Position numbers and translations under genes: made by a program. A stretch of 13,309 bases of DNA from a virus, in UHGV virus genome UHGV-0315017. The stretch is one strand, 5' to 3'. The notes under the pieces are model-generated. The model worked only from the letters and a program-made list of their open reading frames with translations, was not told the origin of the DNA and ran no database searches. Position 1 is the stretch's first letter. Every line of letters starts with the position of its first letter. Shown here piece by piece: positions 406 through 12,035 of this stretch.

Positions 406-482
406 CGGCACGTAGCGCAGCCTGGTAGCGCACCGTCATGGGGTGTCGGGGGTCGGAGGTTCAAATCCTCTCGTGCCGACCA
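406..482 (+). tRNA. proL: tRNA-Pro, anticodon GGG
   Basis: 77-nt sequence CGGCACGTAGCGCAGCCTGGTAGCGCACCGTCATGGGGTGTCGGGGGTCGGAGGTTCAAATCCTCTCGTGCCGACCA; cloverleaf features (GTAGCGCAGCCTGGTAGCGC D-arm, GGTTCAAATCC T-arm, U-GGG-G anticodon loop, encoded CCA). Confidence 0.9.
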
Positions 483-487
483 AATCG
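461..487 (+). other. Putative attL core (3' end of tRNA-Pro), partner of a degenerate copy at 12004-12035
   Basis: TCAAATCCTCTCGTGCCGACCAAATC here versus TTAAACTACTCTCGTGGACCAAAAATC at the far end of the element (CTCTCGTG...GACCAAA shared). Confidence 0.5.
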
Positions 488-489
488 CC

Positions 490-507
490 CACCGGAAAGC
501 ACCGGAT
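490..507 (+). promoter_or_regulatory. Paired direct repeat CACCGGA-N3-CACCGGA (candidate recombination-directionality or regulator binding site)
   Basis: Same paired motif recurs at 564-580 and 2394-2410; read directly. Confidence 0.35.
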
Positions 508-551: not shown

Positions 552-563
552 ATGTTTTTTAGT

Positions 564-580
564 CACCGAACATCACCGGA
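564..580 (+). promoter_or_regulatory. Paired direct repeat CACCGA-N5-CACCGGA (second copy of the CACCGGA motif pair)
   Basis: TCACCGAACATCACCGGATT resembles TCACCGGAATACACCGGATT at 2392-2412. Confidence 0.35.
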
Positions 581-603
581 TTTATAAGCTATCAGCCGGA
601 TTT

Positions 604-660
604 TTTAGTTATACGTTTAGTTATACGGGCTGGCGTATAACTAAAGCCGTATAACTAAAA
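604..660. repeat. Arm-type repeat cluster: two direct copies of TTAGTTATACG followed by two inverted copies CGTATAACTAA (candidate integrase arm sites)
   Basis: TTAGTTATACGTTTAGTTATACGG gctgg CGTATAACTAAAGCCGTATAACTAA read directly; the direct-copy half recurs at 11928-11952. Confidence 0.55.
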
Positions 661-690: not shown

Positions 691-1932
691 ATGGCGAGAA
701 AAACACACCCATTAACCACAGTGCAGATCAAAGCAGCCAGACCAGCGCAAAAGGAGTACACCCTGCAGGACGGCGGAGGGCTTTTTCTCCTGGTCAAACC
801 GTCTGGATCAAAACTCTGGAGATTTTCCTACTACCGACCATCGGACAAAAAAAGAATATTGCTGAGTTTTGGATCGCTTGAAGATGTTTCCCTGGCTGAT
901 GCCAGAAAACGCCGTAGCGAGTACAGGACGTTAATCAGTGCCGGAACTGACCCGCAGGACCACGAGAGGCAAAAAAGAGAGACAGAGGCCCGAAGACAAG
1001 GGAACACGTTCGAAAATGTGGCGGCGGCATGGTACCAGGTGAAAATCAGCCAGAATCTGGCCCCCAACACGATTAAAGACATCTGGCGTTCGCTGGATAA
1101 ATATGTATTCCCGTTCATCGGCAACACGCCAATAGATACCCTCACCGCCCGAAGGTTCGTTGAAGTGCTTACCCCCATCAAGGAGCGCGGCAACCTGGAA
1201 ACACTCAAGCGGGTTTTACAGCGCGTTAATGAGGTAATGGATTACGCCGCCAACAGTGGGCTGATTGATGCCAATCCGGCTATGAATGTGCGTAAGGCGT
1301 TTCCCTCACCTGTAAAAAAACATATGCCAACAATCCGCCCCGAACAGCTGCCGGAGCTTATGCAGGCTTTATCAGTATCGGCAACAGAACGGCAGACCAG
1401 ATTACTGATTGAATGGCAGTTACTGACCGTAACCCGTCCCGCCGAAGCGTCATCAACGCGGTGGGATGAAATCAACCTGGACGCGAAGCAATGGACGATA
1501 CCTGCCGGACGCATGAAGATGCGCAGGGATCACGTTATCCCGCTTTCCGGTCAGGCTATGGCGGTGCTGGAGGCCATGAAACCAATCAGCCACCACCGCA
1601 ATTACGTTTTCCCAAGTCTGAAAGACCCACAGCAGCCGATGAACAGCCAGACAGCTAACGCAGCATTGCGGCGTATGGGATTCGCTGGCGTGCTGGTGTC
1701 TCATGGATTACGCGCCATATTCAGCACAGCAGCGAACGAGGAAGGATTCGAGCCGGACGTAATAGAGGCGGCACTTGCCCACGTCGACACCAACGAAGTT
1801 AGACGGGCATACAACCGGAGCAACTACATAGAAAAACGCATCGTGCTGATGCGCTGGTGGGGCGAATTTGTCGAGGCTGCGGCGACGGGCGTAACCCTCG
1901 CCAGTGGTAAAAGGGGTATCCGAGCCGTGTAG
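691..1932 (+). CDS. int: Tyrosine recombinase / integrase, P4 type
   Basis: N-terminal region (LTTVQIKAARP...YTLQDGGGLFLLVKPSGSKLWRFSYY) typical of P4-family integrases; C-terminal catalytic region with HGLR and terminal Tyr motifs (VSHGLRAIFSTAA...AYNRSNY). ATG at 691 preferred over GTG at 673 from the ORF track. Confidence 0.9.
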   Translation: MARKTHPLTTVQIKAARPAQKEYTLQDGGGLFLLVKPSGSKLWRFSYYRPSDKKRILLSFGSLEDVSLADARKRRSEYRTLISAGTDPQDHERQKRETEARRQGNTFENVAAAWYQVKISQNLAPNTIKDIWRSLDKYVFPFIGNTPIDTLTARRFVEVLTPIKERGNLETLKRVLQRVNEVMDYAANSGLIDANPAMNVRKAFPSPVKKHMPTIRPEQLPELMQALSVSATERQTRLLIEWQLLTVTRPAEASSTRWDEINLDAKQWTIPAGRMKMRRDHVIPLSGQAMAVLEAMKPISHHRNYVFPSLKDPQQPMNSQTANAALRRMGFAGVLVSHGLRAIFSTAANEEGFEPDVIEAALAHVDTNEVRRAYNRSNYIEKRIVLMRWWGEFVEAAATGVTLASGKRGIRAV

Positions 1933-2428: not shown

Positions 2429-2635
2429 ATGGAAGCAATCAGAAAAATTATCTTTCGCCAGGAAGTAAAAAAAATTATCCACATCAAGGCAGACAGCACG
2501 CTGCAAAGCATGATCAACGCCGGAGAATTTCCGCAGGGTTTTCGCGTTGGTTTACGCCGTCGCGGATGGTATGAGGATGATGTGTTGGCCTGGCAGAAAG
2601 AACGCGAACAGGAAGCACGCGGAACGGCTGCTTAA
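2429..2635 (+). CDS. alpA: AlpA-family (prophage regulatory / excisionase-like) helix-turn-helix protein
   Basis: 68 aa; spacing of conserved residues (STL..I..G.FP....LG.R..GW.E.DV..W) matches the AlpA/Xis-like family as recalled; position after int is typical for P4-like and PICI elements. Confidence 0.75.
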   Translation: MEAIRKIIFRQEVKKIIHIKADSTLQSMINAGEFPQGFRVGLRRRGWYEDDVLAWQKEREQEARGTAA

Positions 2636-4687: not shown

Positions 4688-4987
4688 ATGAAACTTAAAT
4701 ATTCTGGCTTAACTGCCAGTGGCAAAACTCGCACTAAATTCATGCGCGGTGATATTTACCGCGACCAGTACGGCGGCACGGTAATGATTAAGGGCGTGGA
4801 GGAACGGCGCATCACCTACCGTCGTGAAGGCTACGAATATGATTGCGTGATGCCTGTTTATCAGTTTCGGCGTGATTTTTCTCTGGTACAGGCAGCGCCC
4901 CGCAGTAAACCAACCAGCAGGGAGAAAGCACGCGCCAATATTCAGGAAATAAAAAAGATGCTTAACGTATTCAGGGGTAAAAAATGA
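4688..4987 (+). CDS. Hypothetical protein (99 aa) immediately upstream of and coupled to the primase gene
   Basis: GGAGAA SD; stop overlaps the primase start (ATGA at 4984-4987). Confidence 0.55.
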   Translation: MKLKYSGLTASGKTRTKFMRGDIYRDQYGGTVMIKGVEERRITYRREGYEYDCVMPVYQFRRDFSLVQAAPRSKPTSREKARANIQEIKKMLNVFRGKK

Positions 4988-6732
4988 AACTGGCACCGAA
5001 CGTAAAAAAACAACCACGCGGAATAAAACACAAAGACACAGAGGTAATTATTTTCGCGGGTAGTGATGCGTGGGCACATGCAAAACAGTGGCAGGAGCAG
5101 GACGGCCCCGCATCCGGCGATAATGTGCCGCCTGTGTGGCTTGGGCCAAATCAGCTTGCCGAACTTGATGCACTGAAAATTGTTCCGGATGGAAAAAAAC
5201 GCGTAAGGCTGTACCAGGCCGGAGAACTGGATTTGGTGGAGACCAAAAAGATTGGTCAGAAGCTGGCGGCGGCAGATATTCAGGACGCAAATTTTTACCA
5301 CGAAGGAATGCACGTCCAGAAGTGTGAAAACTGGCGGCGCTATCTGAATGCTGAGCGTGAAAATATTGCCGCAGGGCTTACCATGCCGGAGCAGAAAAAT
5401 ACGCAACTGGCACAAATGGCAGACAGTGAGCGCGCGCAGCTGCTTGCCGAGCGCTTTGATGGCGTTTGTGTGCATCAGGAAAGTGAAATCGTTCACGTAT
5501 GGCGCGGCGGGGTATGGTGTCCGGTCAGCACAATGGAACTTAGCCGCGAAATGGTGGCGATCTATTCAGAGCACAGGGCCACTTTCAGCAAGCGCGTAAT
5601 CAATAACGCCGTGGAAGCGTTAAAAGTTATTGCCGAACCAATGGGCGAGCCGTCCGGCGATTTGCTGCCGTTCGCCAATGGTGCGCTTGACCTGAAAACG
5701 GGGGAATTTTCCCCGCACACGCCGGAGAACTGGATCACCACGCACAACGGCATTGAGTACACGCCACCAGCACCTGGGGAGAACATCCGCGATAACGCGC
5801 CAAACTTTCATAAATGGCTTAAGCACGCAGCCGGAAAAGACCCGCGCAAGATGATGCGTATATGTGCCGCGCTGTACATGATTATGGCGAACCGGTACGA
5901 CTGGCAGATGTTTATTGAGGCCACCGGAGACGGCGGGAGCGGTAAAAGTACATTCACGCACATAGCCAGCCTTCTGGCAGGGAAACAGAACACGGTAAGC
6001 GCTGAAATGACATCGCTTGATGATGCTGGTGGACGTGCGCAGGTTGTCGGGAGTCGTCTTATCGTCCTGGCTGACCAGCCGAAATATACAGGCGAAGGAA
6101 CGGGCATCAAGAAAATCACGGGCGGTGACCCCGTGGAAATTAACCCGAAATACGAAAAGCGTTTCACGGCTGTAATCAGGGCGGTGGTGCTGGCGACCAA
6201 CAATAACCCGATGATATTCACCGAACGGGCCGGAGGTGTGGCACGTCGTCGCGTGATTTTCCGTTTCGACAATATCGTCAGTGAGGCCGAAAAAGACAGG
6301 GAGCTACCGGAAAAGATCGCGGCTGAAATCCCTGTCATTATCCGCCGATTGCTGGCGAACTTTACCGACCCTGAGAAGGCACGGGCTTTACTACTGGAAC
6401 AGCGTGACGGTGATGAAGCTCTGGCAATAAAGCAACAGACGGATCCGGTTATTGAGTTTTGCCAGTTCCTGAATTTTCTGGAGGAAGCACGCGGCCTGAT
6501 GATGGGCGGCGGTGGCGATTCAGTGAAGTACACGACCAGGAACAGCCTTTACCGCGTCTATCTGGCGTTTATGGCATACGCAGGCAGGAGCAAACCGCTA
6601 AACGTAAATGACTTTGGCAAGGCTATGAAGCCTGCCGCAAAAGTTTACGGACATGAATATATTACGCGGAAAGTTAAGGGGGTAACGCAGACTAACGCAA
6701 TAACAACAGACGAGTGCGACGCGTTTTTATAA
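4984..6732 (+). CDS. Replication initiator: primase / SF3 (D5-like) helicase, P4 alpha-like C-terminal region
   Basis: 582 aa with Walker A GDGGSGKST and downstream helicase-like motifs; size and position match the pri-rep genes of P4-like and PICI elements. Confidence 0.85.
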   Translation: MKLAPNVKKQPRGIKHKDTEVIIFAGSDAWAHAKQWQEQDGPASGDNVPPVWLGPNQLAELDALKIVPDGKKRVRLYQAGELDLVETKKIGQKLAAADIQDANFYHEGMHVQKCENWRRYLNAERENIAAGLTMPEQKNTQLAQMADSERAQLLAERFDGVCVHQESEIVHVWRGGVWCPVSTMELSREMVAIYSEHRATFSKRVINNAVEALKVIAEPMGEPSGDLLPFANGALDLKTGEFSPHTPENWITTHNGIEYTPPAPGENIRDNAPNFHKWLKHAAGKDPRKMMRICAALYMIMANRYDWQMFIEATGDGGSGKSTFTHIASLLAGKQNTVSAEMTSLDDAGGRAQVVGSRLIVLADQPKYTGEGTGIKKITGGDPVEINPKYEKRFTAVIRAVVLATNNNPMIFTERAGGVARRRVIFRFDNIVSEAEKDRELPEKIAAEIPVIIRRLLANFTDPEKARALLLEQRDGDEALAIKQQTDPVIEFCQFLNFLEEARGLMMGGGGDSVKYTTRNSLYRVYLAFMAYAGRSKPLNVNDFGKAMKPAAKVYGHEYITRKVKGVTQTNAITTDECDAFL

Positions 6733-10010: not shown

Positions 10011-10086
10011 CGGGTCCTTTCCGGCATATGGACCCGTTACGGGGCGGCGACCTCGCGGTTTTTCGCTATTTATGAGCTTTTTCAGG
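10011..10086 (+). other. Lambda-type cos site X (cosQ-like, cosN, I2-like); cohesive-end 12-mer at 10042-10053
   Basis: ACGGGTCCTTTCCGG...CCGTTACG|GGGCGGCGACCT|CGCGGTTTTTCGCTATTTATGA closely matches the lambda right-end/left-end junction as recalled (…CGGGTCCTTTCCGGTGATCCGACAGGTTACG | GGGCGGCGACCTCGCGGGTTTTCGCTATTTATGAAA). Confidence 0.8.
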
Positions 10087-10874: not shown

Positions 10875-10952
10875 CCAGAAAAATTTTCATAAACAGATAA
10901 AAACCGCGAGGTCGCCGCCCCGTAACGGGCCATAATTCCAGGAAGGACCCGA
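10875..10952 (-). other. Lambda-type cos site Y in inverted orientation; cohesive-end 12-mer at 10909-10920 (minus strand)
   Basis: Reverse complement reads CGGGTCCTTCCTGGAATTATGGCCCGTTACGGGGCGGCGACCTCGCGGTTTTTATCTGTTTATGAAAATTTTTCTGG, about 75 bp near-identical to site X and forming an inverted repeat with it. Confidence 0.8.
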
Positions 10953-11167: not shown

Positions 11168-11231
11168 CTGGTTGATATTTTCGGAAACCTCAATTTGAGG
11201 AGGCCGGAAGCGTCACCCTTTAGATTCTGAA

Positions 11232-11246
11232 TGGTGATAATCACCA
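11232..11246. repeat. 15-bp palindrome TGGTGATAATCACCA (copy 1 of 3)
   Basis: Perfect palindrome; flanked CTGAA...CGCC. Confidence 0.6.
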
Positions 11247-11255
11247 CGCCCAATC

Positions 11256-11290: not shown

Positions 11291-11399
11291 AAAAGACGGT
11301 TTAACCGTTAATTAAAAATCGACGGGATTTTGTGTTTTCCGGACGACGTGGCCAACGTCATTTTTTAGCGAAAAATTCTGATTAAGGTCATTGTCTGAA

Positions 11400-11414
11400 T
11401 GGTCATAATGACCA
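11400..11414. repeat. 15-bp palindrome TGGTCATAATGACCA (copy 2 of 3)
   Basis: Perfect palindrome, preceded by CTGAA like copy 1. Confidence 0.6.
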
Positions 11415-11494
11415 CGCAGACCATCAAGGCAACCATAACGATTTTCGTTACGGTTGATGTGTGCCTTCGTCCGGCATTCGGACGATATAAGGGA

Positions 11495-11509
11495 TGGTCA
11501 TAATGACCA
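11495..11509. repeat. 15-bp palindrome TGGTCATAATGACCA (copy 3 of 3)
   Basis: Identical to copy 2. Confidence 0.6.
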
Positions 11510-11657
11510 CTCCTACAGAACAGGTAAAACCCACCAGCCTGATTAACAGTTAACCGGAAAAAAATCCGGCATGGGGGGGGAGTGGTTAGCCACGAACAAC
11601 GAATAAGCTGGACACCGCGCCCCCTCTCACGCAGAGAAAAAATTACCGTTTCGTAGT

Positions 11658-11796: not shown

Positions 11797-11822
11797 CCCG
11801 ATATGGTGATCACCATATCGGG
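11797..11822. repeat. 26-bp perfect palindrome CCCGATATGGTGATCACCATATCGGG
   Basis: Read directly; equals its own reverse complement. Confidence 0.6.
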
Positions 11823-11927
11823 GAACATCCACCAGCTTAAAAACGAATGAGCGAAAAAAAATCCAGGTAGAATCATGGAAGTCGCTAGGGCAATCGCCGT
11901 TTAAATTGTGCATTTTTTCAGCAAATT

Positions 11928-11952
11928 ATTTTAGTTATACGTTTGGTTATAC
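11928..11952 (+). repeat. Arm-type direct repeat TTTTAGTTATACGTTTGGTTATACGG, partner of 604-628
   Basis: 24 of 25 positions identical to the left-end copy. Confidence 0.55.
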
Positions 11953-12003
11953 GGTTTAAAAGTTGAATCAATAATATTTATTAAAATCATGCGGTTACAC
12001 GCT

Positions 12004-12035
12004 AAATTAAACTACTCTCGTGGACCAAAAATCCC
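12004..12035 (+). other. Putative attR core: degenerate copy of the tRNA-Pro 3' end
   Basis: TAAATTAAACTACTCTCGTGGACCAAAAATCCC versus tRNA TTCAAATCCTCTCGTGCCGACCAAATCGCCC. Confidence 0.5.

What the first reader, a model, noticed from the sequence alone, without database searches (positions are those of the whole stretch)
604..660. Arm-type repeats: a fwd-fwd-rev-rev cluster at the left end and a fwd-fwd copy at the right end
The 11-bp motif TTAGTTATACG occurs twice directly and twice inverted at 607-658. The direct pair recurs almost exactly at 11928-11952 (one mismatch), about 60 bp inside the putative attR core. This matches arm-type integrase binding sites split between attL and attR after integration.
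Basis: partly seen in the sequence, partly recalled or inferred. Interest (0 to 1): 0.4.

Follow-up and report, generated by a model that had tools for sequence, protein, structure and literature searches.

The report
Integrase arm-binding sites of a satellite island
The repeated 12-base motif at both ends of this E. coli island is almost certainly the set of accessory ("arm-type") docking sites for the island's own integrase. The layout matches the one annotated in phage P4, so it is a well-supported but ordinary feature.

Summary
TTAGTTATACG occurs exactly at 605-615(+), 617-627(+), 634-644(-), 648-658(-) and 11931-11941(+), and with one mismatch at 11943-11953(+). That is 6 hits against 0.18 expected.

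The window holds an ~11.5 kb phage-satellite island inserted in tRNA-Pro(GGG) (proL) between yejM and yejO. Strains with an empty site lack the motif. The integrase has an N-terminal arm-DNA-binding domain.

The layout matches the "attP arm sequence repeats" annotated in phage P4. Two tandem 12-mers lie ~60 bp from the core on one arm. On the int-side arm, two tandem 12-mers lie ~120 bp from the core, followed by inverted copies just upstream of int.

In relatives from six other genera the layout is kept but the motif changes. Where both arms could be read, it changes in both together. The change tracks divergence of the integrase arm-binding domain only, not the rest of Int and not AlpA. A metagenome contig carries the predicted attP junction of a sibling island.

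Verdict: arm-type Int sites, probably also the operator for int autorepression. This is a new member of a known kind, of low-to-moderate interest.

The parts
406..482 (+). tRNA-Pro(GGG) gene (proL), the integration target
   Evidence: ARAGORN. Annotated as tRNA-Pro between yejM and yejO in E. coli genomes.
468..484 (+). attL core CTCTCGTGCCGACCAAA, identical to attB and to the attP of a sibling island
   Evidence: Comparison of the empty site L001, the window and the attP contig L031.
519..553 (+). Island-borne terminator in the P' arm that replaces the host proL terminator. Any dedicated int promoter must lie between it and the int ATG.
   Evidence: Terminator scan. Conserved in related loci.
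604..615 (+). P'1 arm-type site TTTAGTTATACG
616..627 (+). P'2 arm-type site TTTAGTTATACG, tandem with P'1 at a 12-bp period
634..645 (-). P'3 arm-type site, inverted copy
648..659 (-). P'4 arm-type site, inverted copy, ending 31 bp before the int ATG
691..1932 (+). P4-family tyrosine integrase of 413 aa. Arm-binding domain at residues 8-95 (nt 712-975), central domain at 107-203, catalytic domain at 215-379.
   Evidence: Pfam PF13356, PF22022 and PF00589. PDB 3ju0 and 3jtz. 34% identity to P4 Int.
2429..2635 (+). AlpA/Vis-like small helix-turn-helix protein. Candidate excision directionality factor, not the predicted binder of the 12-mers.
   Evidence: Weak AlpA Pfam hit, below Pfam's own cut-off. 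PHROG excisionase families. No covariation with the motif.
11930..11941 (+). P1 arm-type site TTTAGTTATACG
11942..11953 (+). P2 arm-type site TTTGGTTATACG, tandem with P1, ending 61 bp before the attR core
12015..12029 (+). attR core CTCTCGTG--GACCAAA. It lacks 2 nt compared with attB, attL and attP.

Best explanation
The six 12-mers are the arm-type binding sites of the island's P4-family integrase.

In the excised circular form the two ends join into one attP of about 390 bp. Sites P1 and P2 lie about 60 bp left of the 17-bp core. Sites P'1 and P'2 (direct) and P'3 and P'4 (inverted) lie 119-175 bp right of the core, just upstream of int.

Each Int protomer is inferred to bind a core site with its central and catalytic domains and an arm site with its N-terminal domain. 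This would bridge and bend the DNA into the complex that recombines with the 3' end of proL. Integration then splits the sites between attL (four sites) and attR (two sites). Both ends are needed again for excision.

The four P' sites fill most of the 137 bp between the P'-arm terminator and the int start codon. Int bound there most likely also represses its own promoter, as reported for P4 Int and KplE1 IntS.

Shown here: the sites, their layout, their presence only with the island, their covariation with the arm-binding domain, and the attP junction in a sibling island. Inferred: physical binding, the bridging geometry and autorepression.
For: - **Non-random motif.** 6 hits against 0.18 expected.
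- **Island-specific.** The empty site L001 has no copy.
- **Domain present.** Int carries the arm-DNA-binding domain PF13356 (E=4.6e-23). It aligns to the solved arm-binding domains 3ju0 (E=3e-20) and 3jtz.
- **P4 homology.** Record X51522 annotates 12-bp 'attP arm sequence repeats'. Two tandem copies lie 53 bp from the core. Two tandem copies lie 112 bp from the core on the int side. One inverted copy overlaps the int ATG. The window has 61 bp, 119 bp and inverted copies ending 31 bp before the ATG, with the same relative orientations. P4 Int is 34% identical over its full length.
- **Conserved layout, changing motif.** Relatives from Phytobacter, Pantoea, Edwardsiella, Erwinia, Brenneria and Rosenbergiella, and one contig from a bin labelled Paenochrobactrum, keep the forward-forward-reverse-reverse layout next to int. 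Only the 3' half of the motif changes: GTTATACG, GCTAYACG, GGACTAG or GGCATA.
- **Both arms change together.** The distal P-arm pair carries the same variant in L006/L007, L012 and L013.
- **Covariation with the N-domain only.** Motif distance correlates with Int N-domain distance (Spearman 0.80) but not with central-domain distance (-0.04). Partial Mantel r=0.94, p=0.0002. All 6 fixed substitutions between the GTTATA/GCTAYA group and the GGACTAG class fall in the N-domain, and 0 of 331 positions elsewhere.
- **Mosaic block.** DNA identity between L010 and L013 falls to 45-60% only across the repeats plus codons 1-93, and is 75-88% on both sides.
- **Natural attP junction.** Contig L031 joins P arm, full core, P' arm and int for a sibling island.
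- **Autoregulation precedent.** PMC2951348 reports it for integrase promoters that overlap attL, and cites Piazzolla 2006 for P4. A P4 promoter-like site, TTGAAA-18-CATAAT, overlaps the P4 P' repeats.
Against: - There are no binding data for this Int.
- No sigma-70 match of 9/12 or better lies between the terminator and int. Only weak candidates were found, so the promoter overlap is inferred from position.
- The window's attR core lacks 2 nt compared with attL. This copy may no longer excise efficiently, in which case the sites would be inherited rather than in current use.
- The covariation rests on about three independent motif changes among 10 lineages.
- The role of the two inverted P' copies is unknown. 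P4 has one.
Confidence: 0.85

Rival explanations
1. The 12-mers are operators for another island protein that controls int expression or excision. Candidates are the AlpA/Vis-like helix-turn-helix protein (2429-2635) and a small repressor (orf83, YlcI-like).
For: Directionality factors do bind att arms as tandem direct repeats, for example TorI on attL (PMC2951348). The sites lie in the int upstream region. An AlpA-like gene is present in most related islands.
Against: AlpA distance does not correlate with motif distance (rho 0.007). L010 and L013 have 75% identical AlpA proteins with nearly the same helix-turn-helix region, yet unrelated motif 3' halves. The orf83 and YlcI-like genes are absent from many loci that keep the repeats. 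A different motif, tandem CACCGGA at 10-bp spacing, sits next to the core and just upstream of alpA. It is the better candidate AlpA site.
Confidence: 0.06
2. The left cluster works as a nucleic-acid structure rather than a protein-binding site: a long hairpin in the int leader RNA, or a DNA cruciform.
For: The forward-forward-reverse-reverse cluster folds into a 25-bp stem. The minimum free energy is -35.7 kcal/mol and the z-score is -4.3.
Against: The fold follows automatically from having inverted copies. The right-end pair has no inverted partner. P4 has only one inverted copy. In relatives the inverted copies are not better matched to their pairing partners than to the family consensus. 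No T-run follows the stem, so it is not an intrinsic terminator. A secondary effect on int translation is not excluded.
Confidence: 0.04
3. In this particular copy the repeats are relics. The island is locked in place by the damaged attR core, and the sites no longer take part in recombination.
For: The attR core lacks 2 nt compared with attL, attB and attP. Other E. coli islands at proL have a 4-nt deletion at the same place.
Against: All six sites are intact, five exact and one with a single mismatch, and int is full length and identical in several strains. This reading concerns current activity, not what the sites are. Autoregulation at attL would still operate.
Confidence: 0.05

Closest known systems
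Phage P4 attP arm repeats and P4 Int (record X51522; Pierson & Kahn 1987, cited in PMC7286903; Piazzolla 2006, cited in PMC2951348)
   Same: 12-bp units. A tandem direct pair on the arm distal to int, 53 bp (P4) against 61 bp (window) from the core. A tandem direct pair on the int-side arm, 112 against 119 bp from the core. Inverted copy or copies at the int start. The same relative orientations. A tRNA 3'-end core. Int with a DUF4102/PF13356 arm-binding domain, 34% identical.
   Different: The motif is TTTAGTTATACG here and TTGGGGGCAT in P4. There are two inverted copies here and one in P4. The last copy ends 31 bp before the ATG here and overlaps it in P4. P4 annotates a further copy inside int that is not seen here. 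The target is proL here; the P4 target was not examined here. The cargo is a lambda-type capsid and terminase satellite, not the sid/delta/psu genes annotated in the P4 record.
KplE1 (CPS-53) IntS/TorI attL-promoter paradigm (PMC2951348)
   Same: int lies next to the tRNA. Its upstream region lies inside attL and holds arm-type sites. This predicts negative autoregulation.
   Different: A different integrase lineage, motif and number of sites. Regulation has not been tested here, and no clear promoter was identified.
Lambda Int arm-type sites P1, P2 and P'1-3
   Same: A two-specificity integrase with accessory sites on both arms of attP that differ from the core sequence.
   Different: An unrelated arm-binding domain family according to PMC8138268: the DUF4102 type has an extra strand and helix. 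The number and orientation of sites differ. int is not adjacent to attL in the same way.
HPI and HAI7 island integrase arm-binding domains (PDB 3jtz, 3ju0)
   Same: Residues 8-106 of this Int align to them at E=3e-20 and E=1e-11.
   Different: Only the protein domains are solved. No DNA complex is available to show which residues read the motif.

Membership tests
Arm-type binding sites of a two-specificity (heterobivalent) tyrosine integrase | A repeated motif, different from the core sequence, on both arms of attP (split between attL and attR after integration) | tested here: met
   Four copies at 604-659 and two at 11930-11953. The core is CTCTCGTGCCGACCAAA.
Arm-type binding sites of a two-specificity (heterobivalent) tyrosine integrase | The cognate integrase has an N-terminal arm-DNA-binding domain | tested here: met
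   PF13356, E=4.6e-23. PDB 3ju0 and 3jtz.
Arm-type binding sites of a two-specificity (heterobivalent) tyrosine integrase | The sites belong to the mobile element and are absent from the unoccupied attB locus | tested here: met
   The empty proL site in L001 has no copy.
Arm-type binding sites of a two-specificity (heterobivalent) tyrosine integrase | The two arms are contiguous around one core in the excised attP | tested here: met
   Shown for a sibling island (about 78% nucleotide identity to the window over this region, same motif) in metagenome contig L031. Not shown for the window's own island.
Arm-type binding sites of a two-specificity (heterobivalent) tyrosine integrase | Site sequence co-evolves with the arm-binding domain | tested here: met
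   Spearman 0.80 with the N-domain and -0.04 with the central domain. Partial Mantel p=0.0002. Mosaic block in L010 vs L013.
Arm-type binding sites of a two-specificity (heterobivalent) tyrosine integrase | Direct, sequence-specific binding by the Int N-domain, and a requirement for recombination | not testable with these tools
   Needs gel-shift or footprinting assays and recombination assays.
P4-type attP architecture | 12-bp units: a tandem pair on each arm plus inverted copy or copies at the int start, at distances comparable to P4 | tested here: met
   P4: 53 bp, 112 bp, overlap with the ATG. Window: 61 bp, 119 bp, 31 bp.
int genes autoregulated through an attL-promoter overlap (KplE1/P4 paradigm) | The int promoter physically overlaps the Int arm sites | tested here: inconclusive
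   The sites fill most of the 137-bp gap between the terminator and the ATG. No sigma-70 match of 9/12 or better was found, only weak candidates. The P4 promoter-like site does overlap its repeats.
int genes autoregulated through an attL-promoter overlap (KplE1/P4 paradigm) | Int represses its own transcription | not testable with these tools
   Needs a reporter fusion with and without Int.

The most novel reading that the evidence does not exclude
Satellites that compete for the same attB (tRNA-Pro GGG) have repeatedly exchanged or rapidly evolved a compact cassette. It consists of both sets of arm sites plus the first ~93 codons of int. At least four arm-site specificities now share one core specificity.

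This would keep rival islands from excising or repressing one another. It would also provide a natural recognition code for the DUF4102 arm-binding domain, with Int positions 40, 44 and 45 against motif positions 6-11.
Probability: 0.3. Interest if true: 0.5.

Novelty: new member of a known kind. Interest (0 to 1): 0.3.

Why it matters
The result pins down the full attachment-site anatomy of an integrase module carried by about 8% of complete E. coli genomes (452 of 5426). The carriers include a Nissle 1917 derivative and enterohaemorrhagic lineages. That anatomy is useful for annotating island boundaries, predicting whether an island can still move, and building integration vectors.

The comparison across genera also gives a clean set of paired changes between arm-site motif and arm-binding domain. 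These could guide re-targeting of P4-family integrases. Conceptually it confirms a known design and does not reveal a new one.

Tried and rejected
- **AlpA as the binder.** Tested by covariation and rejected.
- **orf83 and YlcI-like proteins as binders.** Rejected because they are missing from many loci that keep the repeats.
- **Hairpin or terminator reading.** The fold is strong but is a by-product of the inverted sites, and no T-run follows.
- **IHF consensus scan.** The only hit in the arms (526-538) lies inside the terminator loop and is not conserved in relatives. It was not used.
- **Promoter.** The strict sigma-70 scan found nothing. The relaxed scan gave inconsistent weak candidates across loci.
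- **attP junction in viral contigs.** 0 hits. The metagenome scan gave 1 true hit and 7 unrelated chance matches, L032-L038.
- **Distal P-arm pairs.** For L010, L014-L016 and L018 none could be found within the 10 kb of flank held.
- **Literature.** The search for 'proL' was swamped by 'proliferation'.
- **Second integrase after the L013 attR.** None is present.

Full report
**What is in the window**

The window runs from the 3' end of yejM through tRNA-Pro(GGG) (406-482) and an ~11.5 kb insertion to the yejO autotransporter gene. This is the E. coli proL locus.

The insertion encodes:
- a tyrosine integrase (691-1932);
- an AlpA-like helix-turn-helix protein (2429-2635);
- a D5-type primase (4984-6732);
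- a single-strand DNA-binding protein;
- a lambda gpE-like major capsid protein;
- a gpD-like decoration protein;
- a Nu1-like small terminase.

It is therefore a phage-satellite type island. All 5426 complete E. coli genomes match the flanks. Only 66 carry 80% or more of the whole window. The int-proximal module (483-1000) is found in 452 genomes, always on the chromosome.

**Checking the observation**

TTAGTTATACG is exact at 605-615(+), 617-627(+), 634-644(-), 648-658(-) and 11931-11941(+). TTGGTTATACG lies at 11943-11953(+). With up to 1 mismatch there are 6 matches against 0.18 expected, and no shuffle reached 6.

The natural unit is the 12-mer TTTAGTTATACG. It is tandem at a 12-bp period at 604-627 and 11930-11953, and inverted at 634-645 and 648-659.

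**Attachment-site anatomy**

An unoccupied site (L001) reads ...CTCTCGTGCCGACCAAAAATCCC... and has no copy of the motif.

| Feature | Sequence or position |
|---|---|
| attL core | CTCTCGTGCCGACCAAA, 468-484, followed by island DNA |
| attR core | CTCTCGTG--GACCAAA, 12015-12029, followed by the host sequence AATCCCAAG |
| P-arm pair to attR core | 61 bp |
| attL core to P' cluster | 119 bp |
| P' cluster to int ATG | 31 bp |

An island-borne terminator (519-553) separates the tRNA from the P' cluster.

**The integrase**

Int has the arm-DNA-binding domain PF13356 (residues 8-95, E=4.6e-23), the phage integrase central domain and the catalytic domain. Residues 8-106 align with the solved arm-type binding domains 3ju0 (E=3e-20) and 3jtz. 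PMC8138268 places DUF4102-bearing integrases, including P4 Int, in the arm-binding IntSXT subgroup.

**Comparison with P4**

The P4 record X51522 annotates 12-bp 'attP arm sequence repeats'. The window has the same order, orientation and distances, with two inverted copies instead of one.

| Element | P4 position | P4 distance | Window distance |
|---|---|---|---|
| Tandem pair, arm distal to int | 4174-4151 | 53 bp from core (4097-4078) | 61 bp from core |
| Tandem pair, int-side arm | 3965-3942 | 112 bp from core | 119 bp from core |
| Inverted copy or copies | 3926-3915 (one) | overlaps the int ATG | two copies, ending 31 bp before the ATG |

P4 Int is 34% identical over its full length (E=7e-81).

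**Comparative evidence within E. coli**

Islands with different cargo share the int/att module:
- L004 has a RepA helicase and an HK97-type capsid.
- L005 has a DUF927 primase with ProQ and PerC.
- L006 has an S-type pyocin and a PAAR protein.

L006 and L007, whose int region is about 70% identical at the nucleotide level, carry TTAGCTAYACG instead of TTAGTTATACG. They do so in both the P' cluster and the distal P pair.

**Comparative evidence across genera**

Ten further loci came from Phytobacter, Pantoea, Edwardsiella, Erwinia, Brenneria and Rosenbergiella, plus one contig from a bin labelled Paenochrobactrum (Int 67-78% identical). The nine examined keep the layout of two direct plus two inverted copies, ending 0-35 bp before int. 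The constant 5' half, TTTRG, is followed by one of four 3' halves: GTTATACG, GCTAYACG, GGACTAG or GGCATA.

The far end of the island was readable in two of these loci:
- In Erwinia psidii (L013) the P pair reads TTTGGGACTATG TTTGGGACTACA, about 62 bp from a full core. This matches its own P' variant.
- In Edwardsiella (L012) the P pair matches its own variant even though the core is a different, non-tRNA sequence.

**Which protein tracks the motif**

- Int N-terminal identity to the window is 72-81% in the lineages with GTTATA or GCTAYA motifs that have intact int. The truncated L018 int is 61%. It is 49-55% in the GGACTAG and GGCATA classes.
- The rest of Int stays at 72-85% in all lineages with an intact int.
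- Across 10 lineages, motif distance correlates with N-domain distance (Spearman 0.80) and not with central-domain distance (-0.04). Partial Mantel r=0.94, p=0.0002.
- All six substitutions fixed between the GTTATA/GCTAYA group and the GGACTAG class are in the N-domain: S40V, R44Q, F45L, S59T, Y78A and I82L. None of 331 positions elsewhere is fixed.
- DNA identity between L010 and L013 is 75-87% upstream. It drops to 45-60% from -80 to +278 relative to the int ATG, which covers the repeats plus codons 1-93. It returns to 78-88% afterwards.
- AlpA distance does not correlate with motif distance (rho 0.007). L010 and L013 share 75% identical AlpA proteins but have unrelated motifs.
- The other small ORFs are not universally present.

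A caveat applies. Only about three independent motif changes underlie these statistics.

**A natural attP**

A metagenome scan for the predicted junction of P arm, core and P' arm returned contig L031 (2136 bp). Its left 1.3 kb is 95% identical to the right end of the L005 island. Next come the P pair, the full core CTCTCGTGCCGACCAAA, the P' arm with its four sites, and int.

This is the excised circle or a tandem junction of a sibling island. Either way, the two arms do meet around one 17-bp core as the model requires. The other seven hits were unrelated chance matches.

**Mechanism**

Shown: the sites, their layout, their linkage to the arm-binding domain, and the attP junction in a sibling island.

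Inferred from the P4, lambda and KplE1 paradigms: Int bridges arm and core sites to assemble the recombination complex. The P' cluster doubles as the operator through which Int represses its own gene.

PMC2951348 reports such autorepression for attL-overlapping integrase promoters and cites it for P4. In P4 a promoter-like site, TTGAAA-18-CATAAT, overlaps the P' repeats.

In the window no good sigma-70 match exists. Weak candidates are TAGTCA-17-TATAAG (560-588) and CTATCA-17-TACGTT (589-617, my own reading of the sequence), which occupies the position corresponding to the P4 site. Promoter overlap therefore remains an inference.

**Rivals**

- An AlpA or repressor operator is disfavoured by the covariation and gene-presence tests.
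- The hairpin (-35.7 kcal/mol) is a by-product of the inverted sites.
- A relic status for this copy is possible, because attR lacks 2 nt of the core. That would not change what the sites are.

**Verdict**

This is a new member of the well-known P4-type arm-site architecture. The most interesting by-product is the evidence that arm sites and arm-binding domain evolve or are exchanged as one cassette among satellites that share the same tRNA target.

Noticed in passing
window 12015-12029; L004-L007 attR; L008; L031: The attR core is damaged in different ways in different E. coli islands at proL. The window, L002 and L003 lack 2 nt (GTG--GACC). L004-L007 lack 4 nt (GTGCC----AAA). The L008 remnant, Erwinia L013 and the attP contig L031 have the full 17-bp core. 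Recurrent small deletions at one spot could be scars of aberrant Int cleavage that lock islands in place.
   Followed up: partly
window 490-506, 574-580, 2394-2410: A second motif, CACCGGA, occurs 8 times against 1.5 expected. Tandem pairs at 10-bp spacing lie just after the attL core and just upstream of alpA. Similar ACCGGA/ATCGGA pairs occur at both places in several relatives. These are candidate binding sites for the AlpA/Vis-like directionality factor. L002-L004 have a third copy from an 11-bp insertion.
   Followed up: partly
window 10011-10082 and 10880-10951: A 72-nt inverted repeat (82% complementary) flanks the Nu1-like small terminase gene. By my own recollection of the lambda sequence (not tested here), each arm contains a lambda-type cos sequence (GGGCGGCGACCTCGCGG...TTTTCGCTATTTATGA). 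That would mean two cos-like sites in opposite orientation about 800 bp apart.
   Followed up: no
window 11226-11249, 11394-11417, 11489-11512 (also about 11800-11825): Three copies of a 24-nt element that contains the palindrome GGTGATAATCACC, plus a related palindrome near 11805. All lie downstream of the terminase gene. They could be terminase or regulator binding sites.
   Followed up: no
window 11985-11997 and the same position in L003-L008, L031: A conserved AAATCA-N5-GTTA element lies between the P-arm pair and the core. It resembles an IHF half-consensus with one mismatch. In E. coli L006 it matches the consensus (A-ATCAA-TTAG-TT-A), although I first read this stretch as a possible arm-like site.
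   Followed up: no
L003-L007: The same int/att module carries very different cargo in different strains. One has a lambda-type capsid, decoration protein and Nu1 (including a Nissle 1917 derivative). Others have an HK97-type capsid with a RepA helicase, DUF927 with ProQ and PerC, or an S-type pyocin, immunity protein and PAAR. L008 keeps only attL, an int fragment and attR.
   Followed up: partly
window 559-591 and 2389-2421: A 33-nt stretch just upstream of the P' arm sites is repeated (76% identity) just upstream of alpA. This suggests shared regulatory input to int and alpA.
   Followed up: no
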